From Propionibacterium freudenreichii subsp. freudenreichii (lineage in GTDB: Bacteria; Actinomycetota; Actinomycetes; Propionibacteriales; Propionibacteriaceae), in the NCBI RefSeq assembly GCF_000940845.1, contig NZ_CP010341.1, positions 1,950,001 through 1,982,000 of the forward strand: 32,000 nt of DNA. The letters run 5' to 3'. Position numbers and translations under genes: made by a program. Shown in pieces: positions 3,128-21,192 of the stretch. The notes under the pieces are model-generated. The model did not search any database. It had not been told where the DNA came from and was given only the letters and a program-made list of their open reading frames with translations. Numbering within the stretch: the first letter of the stretch is position 1; the number at the start of each line of letters is the position of its first letter.

Positions 3128-5445
3128 GCGCCTCGTCGCGTTCGCTTGCCGACGCGATCAGGGCCTTCGACGCCCAACAGTTGGCTGTCCTGTTGCGTGC
3201 CCGGCCCGATCTGACGCAGCCCCGCCCGCTCGACCTGTCCGAGTTGATCGAACGCCTTTCGGCCCGCGCGTCCACCCTGCGGGCCCTTGACCGCCTCGAC
3301 GCCTGGCACTTGCTGGTGGCGCAGGCGGTTGCCGCCTGGGAGGGTGGCGGCGATCCGGTGGACGACAAGCAGCTGGCCGCAGCAATGGGCCTGCCGGACG
3401 ATGTCGCCGCCGTGGACCGGGCCCTTGATGGGCTGCGACAACTGGGTCTGGCGTGGGGCAGCCCCGTGCACCTGACCCAGGCCGCGCGCGCGGCCTTCGG
3501 CGAGCACCCGGGCGGGCTCGCGGCGGTATCCCCCACCCCGCTTGCTCCGGCCACGATCGACGAGGCCCTCCGGGCGGTCGGCGAGGCGGGGCGCGCCGTG
3601 CTCGATCGGCTGGTCTGGGGGCCGCCGACGGGCACCGTGCAGCGCGCCGACCGGGCCGTCACTCGGGAATCGGCCGAATCCACCATGGATCTCCTCCTGG
3701 CGTGGGGGCTGTTGCGTCCGATCGGCCCCGATCAGGTGTTGCTGCCCCGTGAGGTGGCGCTGCGGCTGCGCGGCGGCCGGCTGGTGCGCCAACCCGTGCC
3801 CACGCAGGTGCCCGCCTGGCAGGCCCCCACCTCGGCCACCGGGGCTTCCCTGCCGGCAAGCCTGGTCGACCGGGCCGCCATCGGCTCGGCCCAGGAGCTC
3901 ACCAGCCACGTGGTGGCGGTGCTCGACGACATTGCCGCCCGCACCCCACGGGCGCTGGCCACCGGCGGCGTACCGAAGCGCGAGATGGGCACCTTCACCC
4001 GCTTGGTCGACGATGCCCGGTTGGCCGAGTTCGTCATCGGAATCACGCGCGGCGCGGGACTGTTCACCACCCGCGGCGGCCTGCTGATGCCCACGACCGG
4101 CCTGGACGACTTCCTCGACCTCGACGCCTTCGCACGGTGGCTGCTGGTGCGTGACGCCTGGCGCTCCCTGACATGGTGGCCCGCGGACCTCGACGCCGCC
4201 GGGCGCGCACCGGCAGAGGAGATGACGGGCTCGTCGGCCAGCTCCCGGGCCGCCAGTCAACGGGCTGCCGGCCAGCGGCCCACCGGCCAGCCGGAGTCGG
4301 GGGCCCATGGCGACGCACCCACCCATCCGGGCCTGCCCACCTCGGCGGCATTGCGTGAGGCAGCGTGGGACGAGCTCGTCGCCGCCACCCGCGGTACTGC
4401 CGTTGTCGCCGACTCGCTGGCCGAGAGATTGTCGTGGCGCCATCCGGCGTGGTTGGGAGTCGATTGGCCCGGCGTCGCCCGCCAACTGGTCCGCGAGGCC
4501 GAATGGCTGGGCCTGATGGCCTTCGGTCGCACCACCGGCCTGCTCGATGCCACCCGGAGCACGCCCGATCCGGGCTTCACCGCCTACGGCGACCGCTTCG
4601 TGCTGCAATCCGATCTCACGGCGGTGGCCCCTGCGCCGCTCGACCATGACACGGCGGCGCTGATCGGCGTCATGGCCAACCGGGAGTCCCATGGCGCGGC
4701 TGCGACCTACCGCTTCACGCCTGCCTCGCTCGAGAGGGCGCTGGACGCCGGGTGGAGCGTACAGGACATCTCCGAATGGCTCACGACCCACAATGAATCG
4801 GGTGCCGACGCCGGGCTGCCCGCCCCGCTCACCTCATTGCTCGACGACGTGGCACGCCAACACGGCAAGGTGCGGGTGATGACCCTGGGCGCCGTGGTGC
4901 AGTTGGACGATCCCGCCACCGAGGCCTCCCTGCTCGCTGATCCACGGGCCGAGGACCTGGGCCTCATCGCCCTGGCACCGGGCGTGCTCGGCGCTGCCGC
5001 CGAACCGGCCGAGCTGGTGGCGTTCCTGCGTCAACGTGGCCTGGCGCCCGTCGCGCAGAGCAGCCAGGGCGTGCAGATCACCACTCCCCCGTCGAGGCGC
5101 GCCCCGGCACCGGCCCGTCCGGTCGCCCCACCACCGGTGGACGCCGATGCGCTCGCCGCGGCCCTGCTGCGACGCGAATCCACCGGCCTGTCGCCCGAGC
5201 AGATCGTGCAGGCCCTCACCCGGGCCTACCGCGACGACCTGTGGGTGGGGGTCGACTGGGCCGACGACAACGGCGCCACGCATTCCCACACGATGCGCGT
5301 CCTGTCCATGGGATCCGGGGTGGTCAACCTGGTGCGCCGCGCCGCCGGACGGCTCAGCCTGCCCGTGACGCGCATCATCGCAGTCGACATTCCGGCGTCC
5401 GCCGACGCCCCCTCCGATGCGGGGAAAGCCCCGTCGGACACGTGA
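3124..5445 (+). CDS. large helicase-associated protein, conserved partner encoded upstream of actinobacterial XPB
   Basis: 773-aa ORF with a GTG start overlapping the previous stop by 4 nt (GTGA). Ala/Leu/Asp-rich globular composition with one low-complexity linker. It sits directly upstream of an XPB-type helicase, the same arrangement as the Mycobacterium tuberculosis Rv0862c/Rv0861c pair. No catalytic motif was recognised by eye. Confidence 0.65.
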   Translation: MSASSRSLADAIRAFDAQQLAVLLRARPDLTQPRPLDLSELIERLSARASTLRALDRLDAWHLLVAQAVAAWEGGGDPVDDKQLAAAMGLPDDVAAVDRALDGLRQLGLAWGSPVHLTQAARAAFGEHPGGLAAVSPTPLAPATIDEALRAVGEAGRAVLDRLVWGPPTGTVQRADRAVTRESAESTMDLLLAWGLLRPIGPDQVLLPREVALRLRGGRLVRQPVPTQVPAWQAPTSATGASLPASLVDRAAIGSAQELTSHVVAVLDDIAARTPRALATGGVPKREMGTFTRLVDDARLAEFVIGITRGAGLFTTRGGLLMPTTGLDDFLDLDAFARWLLVRDAWRSLTWWPADLDAAGRAPAEEMTGSSASSRAASQRAAGQRPTGQPESGAHGDAPTHPGLPTSAALREAAWDELVAATRGTAVVADSLAERLSWRHPAWLGVDWPGVARQLVREAEWLGLMAFGRTTGLLDATRSTPDPGFTAYGDRFVLQSDLTAVAPAPLDHDTAALIGVMANRESHGAAATYRFTPASLERALDAGWSVQDISEWLTTHNESGADAGLPAPLTSLLDDVARQHGKVRVMTLGAVVQLDDPATEASLLADPRAEDLGLIALAPGVLGAAAEPAELVAFLRQRGLAPVAQSSQGVQITTPPSRRAPAPARPVAPPPVDADALAAALLRRESTGLSPEQIVQALTRAYRDDLWVGVDWADDNGATHSHTMRVLSMGSGVVNLVRRAAGRLSLPVTRIIAVDIPASADAPSDAGKAPSDT

Positions 5446-5517
5446 GTCTGCCGCCCGGTGTCAGCCCGGGGCGGGCCCGGCGCTGACATTTGGCCACGGC
5501 GGGGATACTGGTGGGCG

Positions 5518-7197
5518 ATGACTCACGACGGACCCCTGATTGTCCAATCCGACCGCACCCTCCTGCTCGAGGTCGACCACCCGCAGGCCGACGAATGCCG
5601 CGCGGCGATCGCGCCCTTCGCCGAGCTCGAGCGCGCCCCCGAACACGTCCACACCTACCGGCTCACGCCCCTGGGCCTGTGGAATGCCCGTGCTGCCGGC
5701 CACGATGCCGAGCAGGTGGTGCACGCCCTGCTGAGCTATTCGCGTTACCCGGTGCCCTCCGGGCTGTTGATGGACATTGCCGAGACGATGGAACGCTACG
5801 GCATCCTGCGCATCGACAAGGACCCGGCCCATGGCCTGGTGCTCACCTCCACCGACGCCGCCGTGATGACCCAGGTGCGACGCAGCGCCAAGACCAAGGG
5901 ACTGCTCGGCGAGGCGGTCGATGACGCCACCGTGCTCATCCATCCCTCCGAGCGGGGGCACCTCAAGCAGGTGCTGCTGAAGCTGGGCTGGCCGGCCGAG
6001 GACGTGGCCGGCTATGTCGATGGCGAGGCGCACCAGATCGACCTTGACCTGGACGACTGGCAGTTGCGGCCCTATCAGGAATTGGCGGCCGAGTCGTTCT
6101 GGGAGGGCGGCTCGGGCGTCGTCGTGCTGCCGTGCGGCTCGGGCAAGACGATCGTCGGTGCGGCGGCGATGGCGAAGGCCCATGCCACCACGCTGATCCT
6201 GGTGACCAACACGGTGGCGGCCCGCCAGTGGCGCGACGAGTTGTTGGCCCGCACCACGCTGACCCCCGATGAGATCGGCGAATACTCGGGCGCCAAGAAG
6301 CAGATCCGTCCGGTGACGATCGCCACCTATCAGGTGATCACCACCAAGCGCGATGGCGTACACCCCCACCTGGAGCTGTTCAGCGCCCGTGACTGGGGCC
6401 TGGTGATCTATGACGAGGTGCACCTGTTGCCGGCACCGGTGTTCCGGATGACCGCGGACCTGCAGGCTCGACGCCGCCTCGGCCTCACCGCAACGCTGGT
6501 GCGCGAAGACGGCCACGAGGCCGATGTGTTCAGCCTGATCGGACCCAAGCGCTATGACGCCGCCTGGAAGCAGATGGAGGAGCAGGGCTGGATCGCGCCG
6601 GCGGACTGCGTCGAGGTGCGCGTGGACCTCAGCGAGGACGAGAAGATGGCCTATGCAATGTCCGAACCGACCGAGCGGCATCGCTTCGCGTCCACCGCGG
6701 CGTCGAAGATGCCGGTGATCTCGTCGCTGGTCAAGGCATATCGGGGAACTCCCACGCTGGTGATCGGCCAATATGTCGATCAGCTGGAGGAAGTGGCCCG
6801 TGAACTCGACTGCCCCATCATCACCGGATCGACGCCGAATCGGCAGCGCGAGAAGATCTTCGCTGATTTCCGTTCGGGAGACCTCGACCTCCTGGTGGTG
6901 AGCAAGGTCGCCAATTTCTCGGTGGACCTTCCCGTGGCACAGGTGGCCATTGAGATCTCCGGGACATTCGGGTCGCGCCAGGAAGAGGCACAGCGCCTCG
7001 GCCGCCTGTTGCGCCCCAAGCAGCGACTGAGCGGCCATGACGCCGATGGCGATAATACGGCGCATTTCTATTCGGTTGTGGCCCGCGACACGGTGGACGC
7101 CGATTTCGCCCAGCACCGGCAGCGGTTCCTGGCCGAGCAGGGCTATTCGTACCGCATCATCGATGGCGCCGAGGTGGGCACCGACGCCGCCCGCTGA
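5518..7197 (+). CDS. xpb: XPB/ERCC3-type superfamily-2 DNA repair helicase
   Basis: Motif I VLPCGSGKT, motif II VIYDEVHLL, motif III LGLTATLVRED, then RxGR-like QRLGRLLR. The N-terminal damage-recognition-like domain starts MTHDGPLIVQSDRTLLLEV. Start set at ATG 5518, because the track start at 5458 adds a non-homologous Arg/Gly/Trp leader. Confidence 0.9.
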   Translation: MTHDGPLIVQSDRTLLLEVDHPQADECRAAIAPFAELERAPEHVHTYRLTPLGLWNARAAGHDAEQVVHALLSYSRYPVPSGLLMDIAETMERYGILRIDKDPAHGLVLTSTDAAVMTQVRRSAKTKGLLGEAVDDATVLIHPSERGHLKQVLLKLGWPAEDVAGYVDGEAHQIDLDLDDWQLRPYQELAAESFWEGGSGVVVLPCGSGKTIVGAAAMAKAHATTLILVTNTVAARQWRDELLARTTLTPDEIGEYSGAKKQIRPVTIATYQVITTKRDGVHPHLELFSARDWGLVIYDEVHLLPAPVFRMTADLQARRRLGLTATLVREDGHEADVFSLIGPKRYDAAWKQMEEQGWIAPADCVEVRVDLSEDEKMAYAMSEPTERHRFASTAASKMPVISSLVKAYRGTPTLVIGQYVDQLEEVARELDCPIITGSTPNRQREKIFADFRSGDLDLLVVSKVANFSVDLPVAQVAIEISGTFGSRQEEAQRLGRLLRPKQRLSGHDADGDNTAHFYSVVARDTVDADFAQHRQRFLAEQGYSYRIIDGAEVGTDAAR

Positions 7198-7269
7198 GGC
7201 GGGTTGGCCGCACGACGCCCGATGACGCCGCACGGGGGCATGACCTGCTCCTGCGGGGCCCGAACAGAC

Positions 7270-7308
7270 GAAGGTGGTGACCGGGAGGACTTCCCGGCCA
7301 CCACCTTC
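7270..7308. terminator. hairpin between convergent xpb and SLH gene 1
   Basis: gaaggtggtgaccgggag-gac-ttcccggccaccaccttc forms an 18-bp stem with one mismatch and one G-U pair. It is followed by TTCTT on the plus strand. Confidence 0.55.
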
Positions 7309-7359
7309 TTGCCATGCTGGTTTCCTGTCGCGCTGGGTGGTTGCCCAGCGGTGTGGGTG

Positions 7360-9237
7360 TTACTTCGTGGGGTTCTCCATGCGATACAAGAACGCGGCCA
7401 TCGCATCACGCGCAATCGCGGTCACCGGACGATAGGTGCCATCAGGCCAACCCGTCGACAGACCCTGCGACTGCATCCAGGCCATCTCCTTGTAGAACAA
7501 CTGACTCGTCACCACATCAGAGAACGGCGAAGAACCGGGAGCCTGATAGGCCGGACTCCCGTTGTACCGGTACATGAACGCAGCCATCGCATCACGATTC
7601 ACATTGTCCAACGGACGATAGGTGCCATCAGGCCAACCCGTCGCAATGCCCTTCGAACTCAACCAGCACATCTCCTTGTAATACATCGTCGAAGGAGTGA
7701 TATCCCGGAACGGCGACACCGCAGGAGCCTGATAGCCGGTATCACCCGAGATCCGGTACATGAACGCCGCAAACGCATCACGATGGATACCATCCAACGG
7801 CATGTACAAACGCGAACCATCAGCCTGCACCCAACCAGTCGAATAACCAGACGTCCCCATCCAATTGATCTCAGTGAAGAACTGGTTGTTCAACGGCACA
7901 TCCGCAAAGAACTGCGTCACGGCCTTGTCGGTCACTGTGAGCGTGACCACCGAGGATGTCTCGGACTTGTCGCCGCTCTTCACGACCACCTGGTACTGGG
8001 AACCGTTCAGTTCCTTGGTGGCCTGGCTCACAGACAGGGTGGCCTTCGTGGCACCGGCAACATCCTGCCACGTGCCGTCGTTGCCCTTGGCCTGCCACTG
8101 GTAGGTGAGGTTGTCACCCGCAGCGGTCACGGTGAAGCTGGCAGGTGAGCCCTCCTGCACCGTCACCGACTTCGGCTGTGCAGTGATCAGCTCTGCCGCC
8201 TCGGCGACGGTCAGAATCGCAGTCTTCGAGGTCTCCTGACCCTTGTTCTTGTCGGTCACGACCACCTGGTACTTCGAGCCGTCCTACTCGGCGGTCACCT
8301 TGGGGACCACCAGCGTGGCGCTCGTGGCACCTTCAACGTTCTGCCACTTGCCCTCTGCATCCTGCTTCTGCCACTGGAAGGTCAGGCCGGCACCGCCGTC
8401 GATGGTCTTCACGGTGAAGGTGGCATCGGTGCCAGGTGCTGCCGTCACAGGCTGCGGCTGGGCTGTGATCAGTTCGGCCGCGGCCTGAATGGTGAAGGAC
8501 TGGCTGAACTGGGCGCTCTTGCCGGCCTTGTTGGTCAGCTTCACGGTCACCGTGTGGTTGCCAGCAGTCAGGCCCTCACCCAGCGACCAGCTAGCAGTCT
8601 TGTCGTCCTTGATCTCGGGTCCGTCATTCCATTCCTTGGCCCCATCAAGCTGCCACTGCGCAGTGTCGGTTGCGTCATCAGCGACGAAGGACGCTGTGGC
8701 ACTGGCTCCGGCCACGGCCACCTTCAGGTTGGACAGCACTGGTCCGGGGTTCAGCTCATTGGCGGTCTTCGAGGGGCCGGCCTGGTTGAAGTAGCCATTC
8801 GTGTACGAGAAAGCCACGGTCTGGCCCGGCGTCACGTCGATGAAACCCAGCCCGACTCGGGTATCCACGAGCTTCCACGCGCCACTGGCACCGTCAACCG
8901 TGAAGTAGCGCCAACCCTTGAACAAATCGGAGCTCTTGGGATAGTCATTGATCGTCGTGGGGCCGGCTTCCAGCGGCCGCCACTCGTTCTGCGTGTAGCC
9001 CGCCGCGGGGAGCAGCTTGCTCGAGTTCACCGTGCCGACATCCACCGCGCACCTCTGCTGGATCGGGGTGCCGTCATGGTTGTCGACCACGACAGTGATG
9101 CTGTTTGCGGACTCAGCATCGGTGCAGGCACCGCCATGGGGGCCGGTGGCGGCGCTGGCGGGCTGCAACCCGGCAAACGCCGTGAGGGACAGGGTGGCGG
9201 CAGCTCCCGCTGCAACCACTCTCTTGCGAGTGAGCAT
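7360..9237 (-). pseudogene. SLH-anchored Ig-repeat surface protein, paralogue 1, interrupted by an in-frame TAG at 8284-8286
   Basis: Track ORFs 8284..9363 and 7360..8265 are in the same frame (checked codon by codon), reading ...TLVVPKVTAE-TAG-DGSKYQVVVTDKNKG.... ATG at 9237 follows GAGGAAA and gives the signal peptide MLTRKRVVAAGAAATLSLTAFAGLQPASA. There are two Ig-like repeats (ELITAQP...F/YQWQ...W..V.GAT.ATL) and three SLH-like domains (F.D......FY.E..W....G...GW.DGTYRP...V.RDAMAAF.YR). Stop is TAA at 7360. Confidence 0.7.
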
Positions 9238-9577
9238 GTGTTTCCTCTCATGTGGGGTGCAAAAACACAAATTTTGCGAAACTGTTGCGAAACGACAGGG
9301 TTCGCATGGTGATTCGAGCCCCGTGTGGATACGAAACGTCCGGCCGGGTCTGCTGGCCGCCATCGGTGGTGACCACCGGGCTCATGGCGATGCTCTGCAA
9401 TCCAGCCGATTTGAGGCTAACACAGCCCTCTGACAGGAATACAGGCGCTCACTCGAATTCGGTGCGGATCCCCGCCGACCCATCGGGTCGATTTGTTGCG
9501 GGATTGTGCATGTCACGCCACCGAATTTGACAACTCACTGAGCACGACAACGCACGGGACACAACAACCCATGGGAT

Positions 9578-9620
9578 GACGGTGTGGCGGTGGCAATCCT
9601 CCTGCCACCGCCACACCGTC
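9578..9620 (-). terminator. perfect 18-bp stem hairpin downstream of SLH gene 2
   Basis: gacggtgtggcggtggca-atcctcc-tgccaccgccacaccgtc, located 15 nt past the TGA at 9635-9637. Confidence 0.6.
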
Positions 9621-9634
9621 ATCGGGATCGTGGT

Positions 9635-11186
9635 TCAGTTCTTCATGCGGTAGATGAACGCGGCCATCGCGTCGCGTGCCACCGGGGTGACCGGACGGTA
9701 GGTGCCGTCGGGCCAGCCGGTGGAGATCCCCTTGTCAGACAGCCAGGCCATCTCCTTGTAGAACTGCTGGCCCGTGGTCACGTCACGGAACGGCGAGGTC
9801 GTGGGCGCCGTGAAGTCGGGGCTGGCGTTGAACCGGTAGAGGAAGGCGGCCATCGCGTCGCGATTCACGTCGTCGAGCGGACGGAAGGTGCCATCGTCAT
9901 AGCCGGTGGCGATCCCCTTCGACTGGAGCCAGCAGATCTCCTTGTAGTACTCATCGCTGGGCGCCATGTCGCTGAACGGTGACGTGGTGGGTGCCGTGTA
10001 GTCGGGGCTGCCCGCCAGCCGGTACATGAACGCGGCGAAGGCGTCGCGGTGGATCGATTCCAGGGGACGGTATTCGTGTCCCCCGGCGACCTGCCAGCCG
10101 GTGGCATAGCCGGAGGTGCCCATCCAGTTGATCTGCGTGTAGTACATGTTGTCGCCGGGAACGTCGACGAAGTACTGACTCTGGGGATGTGCCCACACGT
10201 ACAGCGTCACCACGTCGGAATCAGCGGTGCCATAGTCATTGGTCGCCTGCACCCGGTACTTGCCCTGGTCCATCGCCATCGTGGCGTTGGTGACGGTCAG
10301 GGTCGCCTGGTCTCCACCATCAACATTGACCCAGTGGCCCTGGCCATCCATACGCTGCCACTGGTAGGTGGGATCGGGGTAGCCGGTCGCCTTGGCGGTG
10401 AAGCTGGCGTCCTGGCCCACCGAGGTGGTCGGTGAGAAGGGCTGCTGGGTGATCGTCGGGGCACCGAACACCTTGAACTGGGTGCCATCGTGGCTCTCCC
10501 AGGTGTTGGTGTTGTTGTTGGCCAGGTCCCAGATGCGGATGTAGAGCGTGTGGACGCCGGGCGTCAGGTCCTTGATCGTCCAGGTGCGCAGATTGTCCGG
10601 TCCGCTGATGAAGGGCAGGTCGAACCAGGCACCGTTGTCGTCGAGCTTCCAGATGCCGCGCGATTGTGGGTCGTCGGTCTTGAAGCTCGCAGTGGTGCTG
10701 GTGGAGCCCGCCTTGACATCGGCCACCGTGACATCGGTGACGGCCGGTGGGGTGACGTCGGAGAAGGTGGGCCCGATGCCCGGCGCCTTCTGCTCGCCGG
10801 TCTTCACATATGACCAGCCCTCCACCGGGGCATGGGTGGAGTTGCTGATGTCTGACTGCGTCCAGTTGGCCCCGGCGATGCCGGTGTAGTGCAGCCATGT
10901 GTATCCGGTCTGCGCGCCGTGGGGGAACCCGTTGATGCTCGTGGGCGCGTCAGTGCCCCCGGTGGATGACGGATTGAACCCGGCACGGTAGAGCACCTGC
11001 AGCGCGCCCTGACCCATCCTGCTGGTCGACGGCCACCGGGACGGCCCCGTTGGACAGCTCGTAGGTGGTGCAGGGGCCGTCATGGCCCTTGACCGTGTCG
11101 GCGCCTGCCGACGCCGTGACGCCCAGTGAGCTGATCACCAGGGTGGCTGCGGCGGCCGTGGCCACCGTGATTCTGCGAACGGACAA
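9635..11186 (-). pseudogene. SLH-anchored Ig-repeat surface protein, paralogue 2, with signal peptide and body in different frames
   Basis: A TTG start at 11186 follows GGAAGGGAAAC and gives MSVRRITVATAAAATLVISSLGVTASAGADTVKGHDGPCTTYELS, but that frame stops at 10950. The homologous body (QVLYRAGFNPSS... one QWQ Ig-like repeat, three SLH domains) is in another frame (track ORF 9635..11083). The span is 1552 nt, not a multiple of 3. Confidence 0.65.
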
Positions 11187-11570
11187 CTTGTTTCCCTTCC
11201 TGAGTGGATACCAAGCACGCGAACCAGCGGGGGGCTGTTTCAGCCGTCTGTGTGTGGACCACGACCCGGTGAAATCAAGTGACCCTTGGCAATCCCTCGC
11301 CCAGCACTGCGCTTCCGCGCGGCACCTGGGCGCTGATCACAGCCTCCGGTCGTGGGCAGGTTAACACAGCGCAATCACAGGACGTGATTATGCGCGGCGA
11401 TTGTGGATAACACCGCGACAATGCAACATATGTTGATTTTCCTCGACGTGGCGCAAAACTCGACATCCAGTGACTGCGGACCACAACTCCCCCGGCCGCC
11501 CCACGCGCGCCGCGCTGGCCCCACGACACGGGCGGCGAAGAGACGCGAGCAGACACAAACCCGGTGGGCA

Positions 11571-11618
11571 AACAACACGGTAGGCCCGGAACATGTGTTC
11601 CGGGCCTACCGTGTTGTT
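11571..11618 (-). terminator. long near-perfect hairpin downstream of SLH gene 3
   Basis: aacaacacggtaggcccggaa-catgtg-ttccgggcctaccgtgttgtt forms a 21-bp stem. It is followed on the minus strand by TTTG and lies 48 nt past the TGA at 11666-11668. Confidence 0.6.
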
Positions 11619-11665
11619 CAGGCCGAAGACTCCTCGCTCACGAAGTGCCTTCAGTTTTCAGTTGT

Positions 11666-13180
11666 TCAGTTGCCCTGCAGGCGGTAGATGAAGGCAGCCA
11701 TGGCGTCGCGCGCGACCGGGGTCACGGGACGGTAGGTGCCGTCTTCCCAACCAGTGGAGATGCCCTCATCGGACAGCCAGGCCATTTCCTTGTAGAACTG
11801 CTGGCTGGTGGCCACATCGTTGAACGGCGAGGTCGCCGGAGCGGTGTAGGCCGGGTTGCCCTTGAAGCGGTACATGAAGGCAGCCATGGCATCGCGGTTC
11901 ACGTTGTCCAGGGGACGGAAGGTTCCGTCACCGTAACCGGTGGTGATACCGGTCGAGGCCAGCCAGGAGATCTCCTTGTAGAACTGGTTGGAGGTCGCCA
12001 CATCGGAGAACGGCGAGGTAGCAGGTGGCGTGTAGGCCGGGCTACCGGCCAGACGGTACATGAACGCTGCCATCGCATCACGGTGGATCGAATCCAGCGG
12101 ACGGTACTCCTTGGTGCCATCAGGCAGCACCCAACCAGTCGAAATACCCTCGCCGGCGAGCCACTCGATCTCCTTGAAGAACTCGTTGCCCTTGGGGACG
12201 TCCACGAAGGTCGCGGTCGCAACCGGCACCTCAGCAACAGTCAACTTCGCCGAGCTGGAGTACAAGGAGGCTTCCTTGCCCTGGGAATCGGCACCGGTGA
12301 CGACCACGCGGTAGAGCGTGCCGTCCTGGTCCTCGGTCACCTGACGCACGGTGTAGCTCGACTTCGTGGCACCGGTGACGTCGGCCCACTCGCCGGTCAC
12401 CTTGTCCTGGGACTGCCACTGGTAAGCAACCGCGGCGCCATCCACACCGGTTCCCGTGGTCTTCACGGTGAACACGGCATTGCCGCCGGGGGCAGCCGTC
12501 ACATCAGTAGGCTGCTGGGCAATCGCCACCGGGCCAGCAACAACGGCCTGCTCGGTGGGCTTGCTGGTGGTCACCAGGCCGTCGGCATTGGTGACGCGGT
12601 AGGTCGCCGTGTCGATGCCCGAAGCGGCATTCGCCTGGCTCCACTTGTAGGTCCAAGCACTGGTTCCGTCCCACACGCCAGCCTTCGGCACTGCGGTCCA
12701 AGTGCCCTCTTCGTCGCCATTGTCGAGCTTGTACTCAACCTTGGTCGGCTGGTCAGTCGACGTTGCACTCGACTGAGCCGTCACGGAGAAGTCGAGGCCA
12801 ACGGCGGTCGAACCCCTGGGGACGCTCTTGTCCAGGGATCCGGCGACCACCACAGGGGCGGCGGTCTTCCACGTCGACAGGTCAACGGCAGGTCCCTTGG
12901 CCGGCCCGCTACCGGTGTTGTCGCCATAGACCAGGCCGAGCACGGAGGCAGTCACCGAAGCAGGTGCAGCCTTCAGCTGGCTCCACTCCTTGGTACCGGG
13001 CTCACCGGTGAAGGCCAACCAGCCCTCGCCGTCCACTGCCTTGGCGGGCAGGCCCTGGACCGTCGTGGCCGGGAAGGCCGTTGTGTCGGCCGAGAAACCC
13101 GCATCCGTCAACAGCTGGCTGACATCGCGAGTGACGTCATCCTTACCGGACAGGTTCACTGCGCACTTGGTCTGGATGCC
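11666..13180 (-). pseudogene. SLH-anchored Ig-repeat surface protein, paralogue 3, 3' fragment separated from its 5' end by an IS
   Basis: Reading frame GIQTKCAVNLSGKDDVTRDV... one QWQ Ig-like repeat ... three SLH domains ... IYRLQGN-TGA. Track ORF 11666..13702 extends this frame artefactually into the IS. Confidence 0.8.
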
Positions 13181-13184
13181 CTTG
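13181..13184. repeat. target-site duplication copy (cttg)
   Basis: Identical 4 bp at 13181-13184 and 14432-14435, directly abutting the TG/CA IS termini. Confidence 0.75.
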
Positions 13185-13228
13185 TGGGCCGCCCCCTTCA
13201 TTCGGTCCGGTCGCTCTGTGAGTCGTCG
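13185..13228. repeat. IS terminal inverted repeat (orfB-proximal end)
   Basis: Aligned by eye to 14387-14431. About 35 of 45 positions match, with one gap. Confidence 0.7.
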
Positions 13229-14076
13229 GTTTCGATTTGATGGGTGCACTGCCGAGCGTACTCGGCCGGGGGTAGGTAGCCGAGCGATGAGTGCCGACGC
13301 TGATGGTTGTACTCGGTCTTCCAGTCGCCGATCACGACCTGAGCGTGCAGCAGTGAGTAGAAGCTGTTGATGTTGAGGCACTCGTCGCGGAGGCGGCTGT
13401 TGAACGATTCGACGTATCCGTTGTGCCAGGGCGAGCCGGGCGGAATGTAGAACAGGCCGGTGCGGGTACCCGCCCAGTCGGCCATCGCGTCGCTGATGAA
13501 CTCGGGCCCGTTGTCGCTGCGGAGCACACCCGGTGCACCGCGGACGGCGACGAGCTCTTCGAGGTGGGCGGTGAGCCGGTCGGCGGTGATCGACCGCTCC
13601 ACGAGCCCGCCGATGCATTCGCGGGTGTGCTCGTCGACGATGGAGCAGATCTTGATCGGGCAGCCCCGCTCGTCGGCGTCGAACTGGAAGTCCACCGCCC
13701 ATACGAGGTTCGGTGCGACCGCCGCCGGGGCGTCGACGGTCGAGGATCCGACACGCTTGCGGCGTCGCCGCTGCGGGACGCGGAGGCCTTCGGCTCGCCA
13801 GAGGCGTTGGATCTTCTTGTGGTTGACCGCCCAGCCCTCACCCCGGGCGTCGTGATACGCCCGCCGGTACCCGTAGCGGGGATGCTTCTTCGCCCACGCG
13901 CGCAGCCAGTCTCGCAACGCGCGATCAGGGTCGGCGACCGTGTCGCCCTTGAGCGGGCGACGGTACGCGGACCTGCTCAGCCCGGCCAGACGGCACGCCA
14001 TCCGCTCGCTCACCTGCAGTGTCCTGATCAGGTGCGAGACGGCGGCGCGGCGCCTGCCCGGGCCTAGAAGTTTCCC
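13198..14076 (-). CDS. IS3-family transposase OrfB (DDE integrase-like), probably made as an OrfAB fusion by -1 frameshifting
   Basis: The OrfB frame is open from the slippery site: GKLLGPGRRRAAVSHLIRTLQVSERMACRLAGLSRSAYRR.... It carries the catalytic-core signatures WAVDFQF, LRSDNGPEF and HNGYVESFNSRLRDECL. The track lists 13198..14013 from an internal GTG. Confidence 0.85.
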   Translation of the reverse strand, partial: GKLLGPGRRRAAVSHLIRTLQVSERMACRLAGLSRSAYRRPLKGDTVADPDRALRDWLRAWAKKHPRYGYRRAYHDARGEGWAVNHKKIQRLWRAEGLRVPQRRRRKRVGSSTVDAPAAVAPNLVWAVDFQFDADERGCPIKICSIVDEHTRECIGGLVERSITADRLTAHLEELVAVRGAPGVLRSDNGPEFISDAMADWAGTRTGLFYIPPGSPWHNGYVESFNSRLRDECLNINSFYSLLHAQVVIGDWKTEYNHQRRHSSLGYLPPAEYARQCTHQIETDDSQSDRTE

Positions 14077-14348
14077 TCGGCCAGCTCCTTGAGCGCAGCC
14101 TTCTCCAGCTCCGCTTCGGCCAGCAACCGCTTGAGCGTGGCGTTCTGCTTCTCCAGCTCCCTGAGGCGCTTCGCGTCGTCGGCCTTCAGTCCGCCGTACT
14201 GGTTACGCCACCGGTAACACGTCTGCTCGGATATCCCAAGCTCCCGACACACCGCGGCGATGTCGCTGCCGTCGGCGAGCATCCTGTCGGCCTGCCCGAG
14301 CTTGCGGACGACCTGCTCCGGGGTGTGACGCTTCCTGCTGTTCGACAT
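14064..14348 (-). CDS. IS3-family transposase OrfA (HTH plus leucine-zipper part)
   Basis: MSNSRKRHTPEQVVRKLGQADRMLADGSDIAAVCRELGISEQTCYRWRNQYGGLKADDAKRLRELEKQNATLKRLLAEAELEKAALKELAEGNF. ATG at 14348 was chosen over the upstream track start. Confidence 0.85.
   Translation of the reverse strand: MSNSRKRHTPEQVVRKLGQADRMLADGSDIAAVCRELGISEQTCYRWRNQYGGLKADDAKRLRELEKQNATLKRLLAEAELEKAALKELAEGNF
14070..14076 (-). promoter_or_regulatory. candidate -1 programmed ribosomal frameshift heptamer G GGA AAC
   Basis: The minus strand reads GAG GGA AAC TTC TAG in the orfA frame. Slipping to GGG AAA C enters the orfB frame exactly (codon phase checked). This fits the X XXY YYZ pattern, 4 nt before the orfA stop. 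Confidence 0.6.
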
Positions 14349-14386
14349 GATCTGACCAGTCTCCCTGCCCGCAACCACGGGCGACA

Positions 14387-14431
14387 GGACGACTCCCAGA
14401 ACCACCGGACCTAAAAAACGGGGTCAGCCCA
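14387..14431. repeat. IS terminal inverted repeat (orfA-proximal end)
   Basis: Aligned by eye to 13185-13228. Confidence 0.7.
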
Positions 14432-14435
14432 CTTG
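14432..14435. repeat. target-site duplication copy (cttg)
   Basis: See 13181-13184. Confidence 0.75.
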
Positions 14436-14617
14436 GCCTTGTCGACGGAGGTGAAGTCAACCACCACTGACTTGGAGCCGGGCGCATCAGCTGAGGTGCA
14501 GTACCCCTCGTGAGTGGACGCCACCTCCTTGGCATTCGCAGGCGCCATGCCCGCAAACGTCGTCACAAACATGGCGGCCGCAGCACCTGTGGCCACCGCA
14601 ATCCTACGAACAGACAA
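14432..14617 (-). pseudogene. SLH surface protein paralogue 3, 5' fragment (signal peptide and first 62 codons)
   Basis: A TTG start at 14617 follows GAAAGGAAAC and gives MSVRRIAVATGAAAAMFVTTFAGMAPANAKEVASTHEGYCTSADAPGSKSVVVDFTSVDKAK, then runs into the IS end. The initiation region is nearly identical to paralogue 2 (ACAAG TTG TCY GTT CGY AGR AT). Confidence 0.8.
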
Positions 14618-15145
14618 CTTGTTTCCTTTCAAGCCTGGACAAGGGTGCACGGCCGACCTTCAAGAGCTCTGCCGGGATGTTCGAACACCCATGTCCTCTG
14701 GGAAAATTCATGGCCTTCGATGGGTTCCCTAGGATTGGCGACGCACTATGCCGAGGCAAGAGCATCATCAATCGAACTACCCGTCCAGCCGCTAGAACAG
14801 TAACAGAGCCACTGCTCCTTCGCGGTGACTACTGAGGACTGTTTCCCCTAGTCAGAGCCATCTTCAAAGAGGCTTCGAAGAGTCCTGTCAAGCACTTGGG
14901 GACTATTGGTGTTATCGGTGGCATAGAACGCTGTTATCCGTGCGGCGCGCCGCTCAAACGGCCCCCGAATCGGCCTTCACGCACAAATCACACAGTTATC
15001 GGGGCCCGTGATTCCGCTCGAAGACGAGCATGGTGCCTGCGTGTCGTCCACATGGTGGATAACCGAACAGCTCCATTCCCAGAGCCGGAACCCCCGGCCT
15101 GCCCGGCAGGTGTACCCGCCTCGGCCCGGCGTGTGGACCTCGGGG

Positions 15146-15706
15146 CTACTGGGACCGCTGCGCGTCGGTGAGGGGAACGGTCGACTCCTCGACAACGCCC
15201 ATGTCAAAGTAGATGCCCGGCCGGTACTTCCACAGCTGCACGAGCTGCTTCGGCCACACCGTGACCGTCGCCAGTTCCTCTCGCGTGAACCACCGCGTGG
15301 CCTGGAGGGTGATCTTCTCCTCCTCCGTGTAGCCACTGGAGCTTGTCCGGAAGGGCTCGGTCCGCACGATATAGAACTGCTCGTGCTGGATCAGGACCTG
15401 ATCCGAGTAACCATGGCGCACGGTGCGATCACCAATGGGCCCCTCGAGGTCCTTCTCGGTGATCACAAGGCCCGTCTCCTCCTGGAGTTCGCGCACGGCC
15501 GCCTGTTCATAGGTCTCGCCGGGCCCGACGCCACCACCCGGGGTGACCCACCAGACGACACCCGGCTTACCGGGATCGCTGTCCTCCTCGAGGAGGACCT
15601 TGTCGTCGGCAATCACCAGGACGCGACTGGCGGTGCGGTGCCGAATGGGTCGCTGCTCCGCAGGAACGGTCACGAAGCTGCGGGGATGCTCGTCTTCCAA
15701 TGCCAT
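15146..15706 (-). CDS. NUDIX hydrolase
   Basis: The Nudix box GGGVGPGETYEQAAVRELQEETGL matches GX5EX7REUXEEXGU. 186-aa ORF. Confidence 0.85.
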   Translation of the reverse strand: MALEDEHPRSFVTVPAEQRPIRHRTASRVLVIADDKVLLEEDSDPGKPGVVWWVTPGGGVGPGETYEQAAVRELQEETGLVITEKDLEGPIGDRTVRHGYSDQVLIQHEQFYIVRTEPFRTSSSGYTEEEKITLQATRWFTREELATVTVWPKQLVQLWKYRPGIYFDMGVVEESTVPLTDAQRSQ

Positions 15707-15910
15707 GGGGCAAGGCTATCCGCATGGCCATGCTCGCTCGGTAGGCGAACCCCGCAGGAGGGTCCGGGGCACGTGAACGCTCCCAGGACGCAAAAAACCC
15801 GGGACAAGACCTCGTATGAGGTGTCCCGGGAAAACAAACAGTGGACGCAACGCTTGCACCGTGTTGACGGCACCGCATTGATTGCACGCTGAAGAGGTGC
15901 TGAATGTAGT

Positions 15911-15942
15911 AACTCCCTCCCACCATCGGGTGGGAGGGAGTT
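15911..15942 (-). terminator. rRNA operon terminator hairpin
   Basis: aactccctcccacc-atcg-ggtgggagggagtt forms a perfect 14-bp stem immediately downstream of the 5S rRNA on the minus strand. Confidence 0.65.
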
Positions 15943-15945
15943 GAA

Positions 15946-16065
15946 AGTCCGGCGGCTTCCTAGTCTCCCACAGGCTCCCGCCTGCAGTACCATCGGCGTA
16001 GAAAGGCTTAACTTCCGGGTTCGGAATGGGACCGGGTGTTTCCCTCTCGCTATGGCCACCGAAAC
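15946..16065 (-). rRNA. rrf: 5S ribosomal RNA
   Basis: The reverse complement reads GTTTCGGTGGCCATAGCGAGAGGGAAACACCCGGTCCCATTCCGAACCCGGAAGTTAAGCC...GGGAGACTAGGAAGCCGCCGGAC, the typical bacterial 5S. Ends are good to about +/-3 nt. Confidence 0.9.
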
Positions 16066-16202
16066 AACTATCGGCTTACTACGTGTACAACCCCCCACAC
16101 CAACCCCAACAGGGCGGCATGAACAGGAGGTTCCCGACCGTATACCGGGAACGACACAGTGGACGCGAACAAAACTCTTCACAACAATCTACAAGAATTA
16201 AA

Positions 16203-19332
<3,130 letters not shown>

Positions 19333-19666
19333 ACACAAAACTCATAAAAAACTACAAAGATGCTCGCGTCCACTGTGAAGTTCTCAACATACGGGCGGAC
19401 CCAACCAGCCACCCCCCAAACACGGGGAACAACCACCTGGCCACACCGAAAAACCAGCCACAAACATGGCCGATCCCTCAGGACCCAACAACGTGCCTCC
19501 CACGACCACCAACCAACCCCCACCCGCGTTCCACACCAACACCCCAACAGGGCACCAGCAGTACTAACAAACAGAAACCAGCCGACAATCTACGGTCAAT
19601 GCTCCACAACCTCCACCACCAACGCCGCAGGACACAGCCCACGAAACGCACGATGGCGAAAAGGCT

Positions 19667-21192
<1,526 letters not shown>

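What the first reader, a model, noticed from the sequence alone, without database searches (positions are those of the whole stretch)
7360..14617. Tandem array of three SLH-anchored Ig-repeat surface-protein paralogues, each apparently inactivated by a different lesion
Three consecutive minus-strand genes share one architecture: Sec signal peptide, Cys-containing N-terminal domain, Ig-like repeats with the F/YQWQ...W..V.GAT motif, and three C-terminal SLH domains. None reads as an intact ORF. Copy 1 has an in-frame TAG (8284-8286). Copy 2 has its signal peptide out of frame with its body. Copy 3 is split by an IS3-family element. Three independent lesion types in one family suggest relaxed or negative selection on this envelope module, or strain-level on/off variation, rather than a single accident. 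The array sits between conserved core genes (xpb and NUDIX/rrn), so it behaves as an accessory islet. Each copy keeps its own strong terminator hairpin.
Basis: partly seen in the sequence, partly recalled or inferred. Interest (0 to 1): 0.75.

Follow-up and report, generated by a model that had tools for sequence, protein, structure and literature searches.

The report
Broken slpA surface-protein gene trio
This is the slpA surface-protein locus of the cheese bacterium Propionibacterium freudenreichii: a mobile element has knocked out the known slpA gene in this lineage, and its two neighbouring copies are old pseudogenes shared by the whole species, so the finding is real but ordinary.

Summary
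Three tandem minus-strand paralogues have the same layout: signal peptide, orphan N-terminal domain, Ig-like domain(s) and three C-terminal SLH repeats. None is an intact ORF.

- **Copy 3 (11666-14617)** is slpA of Propionibacterium freudenreichii (99% identity). A 1247-bp IS3-family element (13185-14431) splits it, flanked by a 4-bp CAAG duplication. Nine other genomes have the empty site.
- **Copy 1 (7360-9237)** carries an in-frame TAG at 8284-8286, probably from CAG.
- **Copy 2 (9635-11186)** changes frame near 11005-11020. The cause is an out-of-frame deletion that also removed a conserved Cys segment, not a one-base slip.

Independent assemblies are 100% identical across all three lesions, so none is a sequencing error.

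The TAG and the frameshift occur in every sequenced strain, and no full-length allele exists among about 15 billion proteins. Other strains add further damage: ISL3 insertions, W447*, a copy2/copy1 chimera and an inversion. The two older lesions are therefore species-wide pseudogenes. Only the slpA insertion varies between lineages.

A sister species has xpb directly next to NUDIX, so the array is an islet. One published secretome reports peptides from copy 1, so residual expression is not excluded.

Verdict: correct, but ordinary and largely already annotated.

The parts
7360..9237 (-). Copy 1, annotated elsewhere as a 'secreted protein' plus 'slpC/slpC1'. It has a signal peptide, an orphan N-terminal domain with two Cys, a Big_13-like domain, two Ig-like repeats and three SLH repeats. 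A nonsense codon splits it.
   Evidence: Translation and Pfam. Its two halves match P0163 (317 aa) and P0149 (299 aa) exactly; these occur on 171 and 40 contigs.
8284..8286 (-). In-frame TAG inside the first Ig-like repeat of copy 1.
   Evidence: The aligned codon in the paralogous repeats is CAG (slpA), CTG or ATG, so CAG>TAG is the simplest origin. The TAG is present in every sequenced strain.
7270..7308 (-). Hairpin downstream of the copy 1 stop codon (17-bp stem); putative terminator.
   Evidence: -49.5 kcal/mol for the 96-nt stretch, z = -5.9.
9635..11186 (-). Copy 2 (PFREUD_18270 / RM25_1746 homologue). The TTG start and signal peptide are in one frame. The 460-482 aa body (Big_13-like domain, one Ig_3/I-set domain, three SLH repeats) is in the +1 frame.
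   Evidence: The body matches P0135 exactly (128 contigs) and the 78-aa leader matches P0178.
11005..11020 (-). Approximate site of the copy 2 lesion: an out-of-frame deletion (net -2 mod 3) that removed the segment holding the second conserved Cys.
   Evidence: GC3 periodicity switches frame here. Copy 2 is 32-62 nt shorter than its paralogues between the start codon and the conserved AGF motif. The site is identical in all the other P. freudenreichii genomes compared (loci L001-L018).
9575..9623 (-). Hairpin downstream of the copy 2 stop codon (22-bp stem); putative terminator.
   Evidence: z = -6.0.
11666..13184 (-). slpA, 3' part (codons about 63-566): rest of the N-terminal domain, the Ig-like domain and three SLH repeats. 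It is called as a 511-aa ORF that starts inside the IS end.
   Evidence: Exact match to P0122, which includes AJQ91455.1. That accession series belongs to DSM 20271. The restored gene is 99% identical to P0001 'Surface layer protein A'.
13185..14431 (-). IS3-family insertion sequence, IS407-group-like, 1247 bp, with imperfect terminal inverted repeats starting TGGGC. orfA is 14064-14348 and orfB is 13198-14013. A -1 frameshift heptamer G GGA AAC lies at 14070-14076.
   Evidence: Inverted repeats. Pfam HTH_Tnp_1, rve and rve_3. NCBIfam transpos_IS3 scores 220.8 bits against a cut-off of 160. Empty sites in nine genomes. The heptamer was read from the sequence.
13181..13184 (-). Target-site duplication CAAG (3' copy).
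14432..14435 (-). Target-site duplication CAAG (5' copy).
14432..14617 (-). slpA, 5' part: TTG start, signal peptide and the first 33 or so mature residues, including the first conserved Cys.
   Evidence: This stretch is contiguous with 13184 in nine other genomes.
11575..11614 (-). Hairpin downstream of the slpA stop codon (18-bp stem); putative terminator.
   Evidence: z = -9.2.
7198..15145 (.). The whole islet between the xpb stop and the NUDIX stop. It is absent from a sister Propionibacterium species.
   Evidence: In L019, xpb (87% identity) is followed after 70 bp by the NUDIX gene and then rRNA. GC is 0.61-0.65 here against 0.65-0.74 upstream.

Best explanation
The window comes from Propionibacterium freudenreichii, in the lineage that includes the type strain DSM 20271. 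The region is the slpA islet.

An ancestral gene for a cell-wall-bound surface protein was triplicated in tandem. Each copy encodes a signal peptide, a variable exposed N-terminal part with Ig-like domain(s), and a C-terminal triple SLH module. By analogy with solved SLH modules, that module holds the protein non-covalently on a pyruvylated cell-wall polymer.

Before the last common ancestor of the sequenced strains, two copies were disabled. Copy 1 acquired a CAG>TAG nonsense mutation in its first Ig repeat. Copy 2 suffered an out-of-frame deletion just after the signal peptide. Both are now decaying neutrally: different strains carry different additional lesions.

The third copy, slpA, is intact and expressed in most strains. 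In this lineage an active IS3-family (IS407-group-like) element inserted at codon 62-63 with a 4-bp duplication. That separates the promoter, start codon and signal peptide from the rest of the gene. This lineage should therefore make no exported SlpA.

Shown: the sequence, the lesions and their distribution among strains. Inferred: the order of events, the neutrality of the decay and the loss of surface SlpA.
For: **Identity of the locus.** P0001 'Surface layer protein A [P. freudenreichii]' is 99% identical to restored copy 3. The window's four ORF products match AJQ91452-AJQ91455 exactly.

**Lesions are real.** Five independent assemblies are 100% identical to the window over 6-11 kb.

**IS insertion.**
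- Nine of ten other genomes have the empty site with a 4-bp overlap.
- The element has inverted repeats, a CAAG duplication, an intact orfA/orfB and a G GGA AAC heptamer.
- The transposase passes the NCBIfam IS3 cut-off.
- Deptula 2017 reports IS3/IS407-group elements still moving within P. freudenreichii cultures.

**Species-wide TAG and frameshift.**
- The 317-aa product occurs on 171 contigs and the 460-aa product on 128.
- All cluster members are that length or shorter.
- No full-length copy 1 or copy 2 appeared in two profile searches of 5.8 billion clusters.

**Continuing decay in other strains.**
- ISL3 insertions at two sites in copy 1, plus 166-, 268- and 306-aa remnants.
- A 1-nt insertion at 8280.
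- W447* and 214-aa remnants in copy 2.
- A copy2/copy1 chimera formed at a 22-nt identical stretch.
- An inversion in CIRM-BIA1 and JS15.

**No sign of switching or recoding.** There is no repeat tract and no length variation at either lesion, and no unusual RNA structure nearby (z = -0.76 and +0.56).

**Low diversity explains the intact downstream ORFs.** Strains differ by only about 0.1%, so these ORFs are expected under neutrality.

**SLH function.** Pfam, and the AlphaFold model matching the Sap and SpaA SLH structures solved with pyruvylated ligands. Arg-Asp-Ala is invariant in all nine SLH repeats.

**SlpA is a real surface protein.** It was detected by surface proteomics in several strains (PMC2909200; PMC5390290 supplement).

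**Islet.** A sister species has xpb and NUDIX adjacent.
Against: - Frohnmeyer 2018 (PMC5902329, Table 1) lists PFR_JS22_1_537 in four 2-DE spots of the JS22 secretome, with up to 76 peptide matches and 25% coverage. In that paper's own protein database this tag is the 299-aa ORF downstream of the TAG. The same table lists the copy 2 body weakly (6 peptides, possibly shared with SlpA).
- Deutsch 2017 treats 'slpC1' as a transcribed, surface-exposed protein. I found no entries for the array's neighbouring genes in strains 118, 134 and 138 in its supplementary table.
- So at least one 'pseudogene' half is transcribed and translated in some strains.
- There are too few SNPs to test selection: about 2-5 non-synonymous and 1-3 synonymous per copy.
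- Loss of SlpA from the surface in the IS-bearing lineage was not tested. Table S2 of PMC5902329 names DSM 20271 among strains with an SlpA-sized band, without MS identification.
Confidence: 0.85

Rival explanations
1. The TAG and the frameshift are sequencing or assembly errors, and only the IS disruption is real.
For: Nothing beyond the prior possibility. High-GC genomes do suffer indel errors.
Against: The DNA is identical in independent isolate genomes (PacBio and Illumina), metagenome assemblies and SRA re-assemblies. The exact truncated products occur on 128-171 contigs. The copy 2 lesion is a multi-codon deletion, not a homopolymer miscount.
Confidence: 0.01
2. The lesions are bypassed by recoding: read-through of the TAG in copy 1 and/or ribosomal frameshifting in copy 2. 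Full-length, exported, SLH-anchored proteins would still be made at a low level.
For: Both lesions are conserved in all strains, and the downstream ORFs are open in many of them. A copy 1 product is abundant in one secretome. A GGGGG run precedes the frame-1 TGA of copy 2 (CGG GGG CAC TGA C), which loosely recalls the prfB +1 site.
Against: - Strain diversity of 0.1% explains the conservation without selection.
- Many strains carry extra disabling lesions in the downstream parts.
- There is no slippery re-pairing codon at the TGA.
- GC3 places the ancestral frame change about 60 nt upstream of that stop.
- There is no stimulatory RNA structure.
- The secretome table gives only a calculated mass (32,959 Da) for the listed ORF, and no N-terminal-half product (_536) or full-length product is listed with it.
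- No Pyl or suppressor machinery is known in this species (my own knowledge; only one tRNA, Thr, lies in the window).
Confidence: 0.04
3. Copy 1 is now a split gene whose halves are expressed separately. The 317-aa N-terminal half would be a secreted, anchorless protein. The 299-aa SLH half would be translated by re-initiation at GTG 8265 or 8259, and either half may have kept or gained a role.
For: Secretome detection of a copy 1 product in JS22. Strain-variable slpC1 transcript levels correlate negatively with IL-10 induction. GTG codons lie 18-24 nt after the TAG, next to an AGGTGG stretch. The 317-aa half keeps its signal peptide and is nearly invariant.
Against: - The SLH half has no signal peptide, so its presence in supernatant may reflect lysis. 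Many cytoplasmic proteins were found in the same secretomes.
- The paper's table gives it 'signal peptide: yes, 1 TMD, 32,959 Da'. That fits the N-terminal half (32,881 Da by my calculation) at least as well as the SLH half (32,673 Da). Which half was seen is therefore unclear.
- Both halves are destroyed in many strains.
Confidence: 0.15
4. The silent paralogues are a cassette reservoir for surface variation. Recombination or inversion would swap exposed domains behind the single working slpA promoter and signal peptide, as in Campylobacter fetus sap or Lactobacillus acidophilus slpA/slpB.
For: Recombination within the array does happen. There is a copy2/copy1 chimera at a 22-nt identical stretch, SlpA alleles that lost one SLH repeat and an ISL3-bounded inversion in CIRM-BIA1 and JS15.
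Against: No chimera joins the slpA 5' end to another copy's body in any database. The observed chimera still lacks a signal peptide. DNA identity between copies is only 71-79% and is confined to the SLH region, downstream of the variable part. The inversions are IS-mediated, not site-specific.
Confidence: 0.04
5. The losses are adaptive rather than neutral. Shedding SLH surface proteins would be favoured in the dairy niche, for example to escape phages that use them as receptors or to save cost. This would explain repeated independent hits on the family.
For: slpA has independent knock-outs or damage: the IS allele on 26 contigs and a 453/475-aa allele with an SLH deletion and an altered N-terminus on 9 contigs. 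Other SLH genes of the species (inlA, slpB, slpE) are also strain-variable or truncated. Phages and CRISPR immunity are common in the species.
Against: No receptor data exist. IS elements are very active genome-wide in this species, and about 3.5% of the genome is IS, so repeated hits are expected by chance. Most strains keep slpA intact.
Confidence: 0.2

Closest known systems
SlpA (PFREUD_18290 / PFCIRM129_09350 / RM25_1747) of Propionibacterium freudenreichii
   Same: Copy 3 is this gene. The restored protein is 99% identical, has three C-terminal SLH domains as described in PMC4714504, and sits in the same position next to NUDIX and the second Slp gene.
   Different: Here an IS3-family element interrupts it after codon 62. 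The allele also differs at two residues (D252 and P447, against Y and A in nine other genomes). The papers I read treat RM25_1747 as SlpA and report no sequence differences between strains. They do not mention the interruption.
'Another Slp protein' RM25_1746 / PFREUD_18270, and 'slpC/slpC1' (PFCIRM121_08040) with the 'secreted protein' upstream of it
   Same: Copy 2 and the two halves of copy 1 are these annotated ORFs, identical in sequence. Frohnmeyer 2018 calls them SlpA paralogues.
   Different: The literature lists them as separate, apparently normal genes. Read together, they are one gene cut by a TAG and one gene that has lost its signal peptide through a frame-breaking deletion.
Sap/EA1 of Bacillus anthracis and SpaA of Paenibacillus alvei (SLH-anchored S-layer proteins; PDB 3PYW, 6BT4, 6CWC)
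   Same: A triple SLH module with the same predicted fold (TM 0.80-0.86, rmsd 2.6-3.2 A). sap and eag are also tandem paralogous genes (my own knowledge).
   Different: The SLH module is C-terminal here and N-terminal in Sap, EA1 and SpaA. Sequence identity is only 12-23%. Each repeat carries xRDA where the Bacillus proteins have TRAE. Binding to a pyruvylated polymer and lattice formation were not tested. CIRM-BIA129 shows no typical thick S-layer.
IS407 group of the IS3 family (annotated in this species as ISAar43-like, 'IS407 orfB')
   Same: About 1.25 kb long, two ORFs with a -1 frameshift heptamer, TG...CA ends, rve DDE domain and a 4-bp target duplication. Deptula 2017 annotates such elements and sees them transpose within cultures.
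   Different: I did not compare the element with ISfinder entries, so the group assignment rests on the 4-bp duplication, the size and the published annotation.
Loss of S-layer expression by IS insertion in Geobacillus stearothermophilus (ISBst12 in or near sbsC). Recalled from memory, not checked here.
   Same: A mobile element silences an S-layer gene and produces S-layer-negative variants within a species.
   Different: Different IS family and organism. Here the insertion is inside the coding region and is fixed in a lineage found in many samples.

Membership tests
SLH-domain cell-wall-anchored proteins (Pfam PF00395) | Significant match to the SLH profile, usually in three tandem copies | tested here: met
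   Scores of 60, 69 and 80 bits against a cut-off of 20.8 in copies 1, 2 and 3. Three repeats per copy are visible in the alignment, with invariant W, G and R-D-A columns.
SLH-domain cell-wall-anchored proteins (Pfam PF00395) | Three SLH repeats fold into the pseudo-trimeric three-prong module seen in Sap and SpaA | tested here: met
   In the AlphaFold model of SlpA, residues about 385-559 have pLDDT above 90. Foldseek gives 3PYW TM 0.85, 6BT4 0.86 and 6CWH/6CWC 0.80. This is a prediction, not a solved structure.
SLH-domain cell-wall-anchored proteins (Pfam PF00395) | Binding to a pyruvylated secondary cell-wall polymer (CsaB-dependent) | not testable with these tools
   No csaB lies in the window, and biochemistry would be needed.
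True S-layer protein (forms a 2-D crystalline lattice) | Self-assembly into a paracrystalline surface array | not testable with these tools
   The literature is ambivalent. SlpA is extractable from the surface, but CIRM-BIA129 shows no typical thick S-layer, and the authors suggest these are S-layer-associated proteins.
Bacterial Ig-like (Ig_3 / I-set) repeat proteins | Profile match above the curated cut-off | tested here: inconclusive
   Copy 2: Ig_3 47.3 against 30 and I-set 46.7 against 23.7, so met. Copy 1: 26 against 30 and 21.3 against 23.7, just below. SlpA: no Pfam hit, but the model shows a confident beta-sandwich that matches I-set tandems, and the YQWQ...G.W..V.G motif is invariant.
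IS3 family insertion sequence | DDE (rve) transposase matching the IS3 profile above the cut-off | tested here: met
   NF033516 scores 220.8 bits against 160. Pfam finds rve, rve_3, HTH_21 and HTH_Tnp_1.
IS3 family insertion sequence | Two overlapping ORFs joined by programmed -1 frameshifting | tested here: met
   orfA ends ...G GGA AAC TTC TAG. The X XXY YYZ heptamer lies at 14070-14076, and the -1 frame runs on into orfB (read). One NCBI record annotates a fused 383-aa product (L014). Frameshifting itself was not measured.
IS3 family insertion sequence | Terminal inverted repeats (5'-TG...CA-3') and a short target duplication (3-4 bp) | tested here: met
   The arms are 36 nt and 81% complementary, and both ends start TGGGC. 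The CAAG duplication is confirmed by empty sites in nine genomes.
Pseudogene (copies 1 and 2) | A disabling lesion relative to intact paralogues, with no intact allele in the population | tested here: met
Pseudogene (copies 1 and 2) | Further independent disabling mutations accumulate in different lineages | tested here: met
   ISL3 insertions, W447*, a 1-nt insertion, truncated remnants and a chimeric deletion.
Pseudogene (copies 1 and 2) | No protein product | tested here: inconclusive
   Published 2-DE/MS lists a copy 1 ORF strongly and the copy 2 body weakly in the JS22 secretome. Which half of copy 1 was seen, and whether the copy 2 peptides are unique, is unclear.
Phase-variable (on/off) surface gene | The lesion lies in a hypermutable repeat tract or invertible element whose state differs between or within strains | tested here: not met
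   There is no simple repeat at either site, and both sites are identical in all the other P. freudenreichii genomes compared (loci L001-L018). Only the IS insertion differs between lineages, and it is a one-way knock-out unless precisely excised.

The most novel reading that the evidence does not exclude
Copy 1 may not be dead. Its TAG, conserved across the species, would be bypassed by read-through, or followed by re-initiation, so that an SLH-bearing product reaches the outside of the cell. On this reading the split or recoded gene is kept because it modulates surface properties or host response. That would fit the abundant JS22 secretome spots and the link between slpC1 expression and low IL-10 induction.
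Probability: 0.06. Interest if true: 0.5.

Novelty: already known. Interest (0 to 1): 0.15.

Why it matters
Its value is mainly in annotation and strain choice. P. freudenreichii surface proteins are studied for probiotic adhesion and anti-inflammatory effects. This locus shows that the type-strain lineage (DSM 20271-like) carries slpA::IS, so it should lack exported SlpA. It also shows that the 'SlpA paralogues' and 'slpC1' used in multi-strain association studies are fragments of pseudogenes. The papers I read list these ORFs as ordinary genes and report no SlpA sequence differences between strains. Beyond that, it is a textbook case of IS-driven and recombination-driven decay of a recently expanded surface-protein family in a domesticated bacterium.

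Tried and rejected
- **Intact alleles.** I looked for full-length copy 1 or copy 2 with two profile searches of 5.8 billion protein clusters and with exact-sequence cluster listings. None was found.
- **Homologues of the N-terminal domain.** I used an exhaustive phmmer search of 1.84 billion representatives, PDB sequences, NCBIfam and Pfam. There were only weak hits to the Big_13-like stretch. The first 100 or so mature residues are orphan, and AlphaFold is not confident there (pLDDT below 50).
- **Selection test.** I tabulated SNPs across ten genomes. There are too few for dN/dS.
- **Recoding signals.** I checked RNA folding around both lesions and inspected the sequence for slippery sites. 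Nothing convincing emerged.
- **Position of the copy 2 frame change.** I first considered a shift after the frame-1 'LPC' Cys, but rejected it because GC3 periodicity switches about 40 nt upstream.
- **Which half of copy 1 was seen in the JS22 secretome.** I compared calculated masses. The result is ambiguous.
- **Deutsch 2017 supplementary surface proteome.** I searched for the array's neighbouring locus tags in strains 118, 134 and 138 and found no entries.
- **Consensus scans.** The promoter and terminator scans found nothing useful in this high-GC DNA.
- **Islet boundaries.** Comparing the edges with the sister-species intergenic region showed no repeats or integration signature.

Full report
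**What is in the sequence**

The minus strand between 7360 and 14617 holds three consecutive reading units.

Copy 1 (7360-9237) translates in a single frame into a 625-codon product, interrupted once by TAG at 8284-8286 in the context …PKVTAE*DGSKYQVVV….

Copy 2 (9635-11186) starts with TTG and a typical signal peptide, MSVRRITVATAAAATLVISSLGVTASAGA. That frame stops at 10950-10952. The rest of the protein, 460-482 aa, lies in the +1 frame, which is open from 11083.

Copy 3 (11666-14617) has a near-identical start region and signal peptide at 14617-14432. A 1247-bp element follows (13185-14431), and then the remainder of the gene. Deleting the element and one copy of CAAG restores a 566-codon ORF.

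**Domain calls**

- Pfam finds SLH well above its cut-off in all three copies.
- Ig_3 and I-set are above the cut-off in copy 2 and just below it in copy 1.
- The alignment of the three proteins shows three SLH repeats each. The YQWQ…G.W..V.G motif and R-D-A in every SLH repeat are invariant.
- An AlphaFold model of SlpA is confident (pLDDT above 90) from about residue 270 to the end. It shows a beta-sandwich followed by a three-SLH module.
- That module superposes on the SLH modules of B. anthracis Sap (3PYW, 6BT4; TM 0.85-0.86) and P. alvei SpaA (TM about 0.8). These were solved with pyruvylated cell-wall ligands.
- The first 200 or so residues are modelled poorly. They have no detectable relatives outside this species apart from weak hits to a Big_13-like stretch.
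- Two Cys are conserved in copies 1 and 3.

Each copy is followed by a 17-22 bp perfect hairpin (z = -5.9, -6.0 and -9.2). There is no classic U-tract, so the consensus scan missed all three.

The flanks are xpb and NUDIX and an rRNA operon at 15947-21191.

**Whose locus it is**

The profile search returns Propionibacterium freudenreichii proteins at the top. 'Surface layer protein A' is 99% identical to restored copy 3. A 460-aa 'S-layer homology domain-containing protein' corresponds to the copy 2 body, and a 299-aa protein to the part of copy 1 after the TAG.

Exact-sequence look-ups show that the window's four ORF products are AJQ91452-AJQ91455. Deptula 2017 lists CP010341 (locus tag RM25) as strain DSM 20271, and names RM25_1747 as SlpA and RM25_1746 as 'another Slp protein'. 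Assigning the AJQ accessions to that record is my own recollection, not a tool result.

Falentin 2010 counts PFREUD_18270 and PFREUD_18290 (SlpA) among seven S-layer proteins and detected SlpA by surface proteomics. Falentin 2016 describes slpA as having three C-terminal SLH domains. That paper also notes that CIRM-BIA129 lacks a typical thick S-layer, so these may be S-layer-associated proteins.

**Are the lesions real, and how widespread are they?**

Five independent assemblies are 100% identical to the window over 6-11 kb, covering all three lesions. They comprise an isolate draft, two metagenome assemblies and SRA re-assemblies. One of the contigs was seen in 20 or more samples. Assembly error is excluded.

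The three lesions differ in age:

- **The TAG.** The TAG-terminated 317-aa product occurs with exactly this sequence on 171 contigs.
- **The copy 2 frame change.** The 460-aa copy 2 body occurs with exactly this sequence on 128 contigs.
- **No intact allele.** Every member of those clusters is that length or shorter. No full-length copy 1 or copy 2 appears anywhere in the collection. In all ten complete or near-complete genomes fetched, both lesions are identical to the window.
- **The IS.** By contrast, nine of those ten genomes have the empty IS site. Window 14432 abuts 13184 with a 4-bp overlap, which proves a CAAG target duplication.

The slpA::IS allele (511-aa remnant, P0122) is seen on 26 contigs, against at least 125 with intact slpA among the members listed.

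**Nature of each lesion**

*Copy 1.* The codon aligned with TAG is CAG in slpA, CTG in copy 1's second Ig repeat and ATG in copy 2. A single C>T change from CAG is the simplest origin.

*Copy 2.* GC3 periodicity is 0.87-1.0 in the leader frame up to about 11020 and 0.87-0.93 in the body frame from about 11035 onward. The frame change therefore lies in …GAT GGG TCA GGG CGC G…, at roughly 11005-11020. Copy 2 is 32 nt (against copy 1) or 62 nt (against slpA) shorter between the start codon and the invariant AGF/AGY motif. Both differences are 2 mod 3. The missing stretch includes the second conserved Cys. The lesion is therefore an out-of-frame deletion. It cannot revert by slippage, and there is no repeat tract.

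*Copy 3.* The element has the hallmarks of the IS3 family:

- imperfect terminal inverted repeats beginning TGGGC;
- orfA (HTH_Tnp_1) and orfB (rve, rve_3), with orfB passing NCBIfam's IS3 cut-off at 220.8 bits against 160;
- a G GGA AAC heptamer immediately before the orfA stop, from which the -1 frame continues into orfB.

Its size and 4-bp duplication fit the IS407 group. Deptula 2017 annotates ISAar43/IS407-type elements in this species and saw them move within cultures. The insertion sits after codon 62. It cuts the promoter, start codon and signal peptide away from the other 504 codons.

**Decay elsewhere in the species**

Other strains add different damage:

- ISL3 insertions at two positions in the SLH part of copy 1.
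- 166-aa, 268-aa and 306-aa remnants of copy 1.
- A 1-nt insertion at 8280.
- W447* and 214-aa remnants of copy 2.
- SlpA alleles of 453 and 475 aa that have lost one SLH repeat by recombination between RDAMAAF motifs and have an altered N-terminus.

JS14 and relatives carry a 463-aa chimera that begins as copy 2 and ends as copy 1. The junction lies in the longest stretch identical between the two copies, 22 nt encoding FYKEMAW. In CIRM-BIA1 and JS15, ISL3 copies bracket a rearrangement that inverts copy 1 relative to copy 2 and slpA. JS9 has the same slpA::IS, but the sequence beyond the IS differs and the IS end carries six SNPs, as expected after recombination between two IS copies.

This pattern is what neutral decay in an IS-rich genome looks like. 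IS elements make up about 3.5% of the CIRM-BIA1 genome. Strains differ by only about 0.1% here. The open downstream ORFs of copies 1 and 2 are therefore expected even without selection.

**Islet status**

A scan of one genome per species with the xpb product found a MAG of another Propionibacterium species (xpb 87% identical). In it, xpb is followed after 70 bp by the NUDIX gene and then by rRNA. There are no slp genes. The 7.9-kb interval 7198-15145 is therefore an insertion specific to P. freudenreichii. Its G+C content is slightly lower than that of the upstream flank. This agrees with the genomic-island prediction in Deptula 2017.

**The caveat: expression**

Frohnmeyer 2018 found three products in the JS22 secretome:

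- SlpA (PFR_JS22_1_534).
- Weakly, PFR_JS22_1_535, the copy 2 body: six peptides at 6% coverage, in the same spot as SlpA, so the peptides may be shared.
- Strongly, PFR_JS22_1_537: four spots, up to 76 peptide matches and 25% coverage.

The paper's own protein database shows _536 to be the 317-aa N-terminal half and _537 the 299-aa half after the TAG. However, the table's predicted features for _537 are signal peptide yes, one TMD and 32,959 Da. These fit the N-terminal half (32,881 Da by my calculation) at least as well as the SLH half (32,673 Da). I cannot tell which half was seen.

Deutsch 2017 names the SLH half slpC1. It reports strain-variable transcription that correlates negatively with IL-10 induction and says the protein was confirmed at the surface. 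I found no entries for the array's neighbouring genes of strains 118, 134 and 138 in the supplementary table.

So copy 1 is transcribed, and at least one half is translated in some strains. I found no RNA structure or slippery site that would suggest programmed read-through or frameshifting. The simplest reading is termination at the TAG, giving a secreted, anchorless N-terminal fragment. Some re-initiation at the GTG codons 18-24 nt downstream is possible. This remains open.

**Verdict**

The finding is accurate and its coordinates are right. However, it describes an already named and annotated locus (slpA and its paralogues), and the mechanisms are ordinary: a nonsense mutation, a frame-breaking deletion and an IS insertion.

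The other two lesions are fixed in the species.

What I add is the following:

- the distinction in age between the lesions;
- the exact IS boundaries and target duplication;
- the nature and position of the copy 2 lesion;
- the proof of islet status;
- the note that the literature treats these fragments, and the interrupted type-strain slpA, as ordinary genes.

Interest is low.

Noticed in passing
L002/L011 (JS9, LT618785) against window 14383-14431 and beyond: JS9 has the same IS at the same slpA site. Its distal IS end carries six clustered SNPs, and the flank beyond the IS is unrelated: the NUDIX gene and the slpA 5' fragment are replaced by other genes and transposases. This looks like recombination between two IS copies after the insertion.
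   Followed up: partly
L004 and L010 (JS15 and CIRM-BIA1), corresponding to window about 5430-9338: In CIRM-BIA1 and JS15, two ISL3 copies bracket copy 1. Copy 1 is inverted relative to copy 2 and slpA, its SLH part is cut at window about 7696, and xpb is no longer adjacent.
   Followed up: partly
P0138/P0148 (463 aa; JS14 PFR_JS14_484), junction at window about 9760 / 7495: This is a copy2/copy1 chimera that deletes copy 1. It formed at the longest stretch identical between the two copies, 22 nt (GTTCTACAAGGAGATGGCCTGG, encoding FYKEMAW). It is annotated as 'Surface layer protein A' in some records.
   Followed up: yes
window 12613 and 12028 (slpA codons 252 and 447): The slpA::IS lineage has D252 and P447, whereas nine other genomes have Y and A. 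Both differences are non-synonymous, and no synonymous difference is private to this lineage. This could be drift after inactivation or simply lineage polymorphism.
   Followed up: no
SNP table across window 5000-16500: A large share of the between-strain substitutions are G>T on the coding strand, several of them turning Asp (GAC) into Tyr (TAC): D252Y, D512Y and D554Y. V53F is another G>T change. This may reflect a mutational bias such as oxidative damage.
   Followed up: no
P0001 (SCQ70840.1 / SCQ79616.1) against window 14497-14499: One otherwise intact SlpA allele replaces the first conserved Cys with Trp (…DEGYWTSAD…). The proposed disulfide is therefore not universally kept.
   Followed up: no
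P0129/P0130 (453 and 475 aa SlpA alleles, 9 contigs): This is a second, independent damaged slpA allele. One SLH repeat is deleted in frame between RDAMAAF motifs, and the N-terminus differs (MTSPSTHEGYC…), which suggests a further lesion in the signal-peptide region.
   Followed up: no
window 7204-8148 (+), 11564-13240 (+), 5461-7233 (-): Long ORFs run antisense to the slp genes and xpb (314, 558 and 590 aa). They are the usual shadow ORFs of 65-70% G+C DNA and are not genes.
   Followed up: no
Literature against sequence: window 13185-14431: Deptula 2017 cites RM25_1747 as the SlpA gene 'found in all strains'. Frohnmeyer 2018 states that SlpA sequences show no changes or deletions between strains. 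Yet the AJQ91455.1 product is the 511-aa remnant downstream of an IS. Table S2 of Frohnmeyer 2018 names DSM 20271 among strains showing an SlpA-sized band.
   Followed up: partly
window 14595-14625 and 11165-11195: The ribosome-binding and start regions of slpA and copy 2 are nearly identical (GGAAACAAGTTGTCyGTTCG, both with TTG starts). Further upstream the sequences are unrelated, so the duplication unit began just before the RBS or the promoters have since diverged.
   Followed up: no
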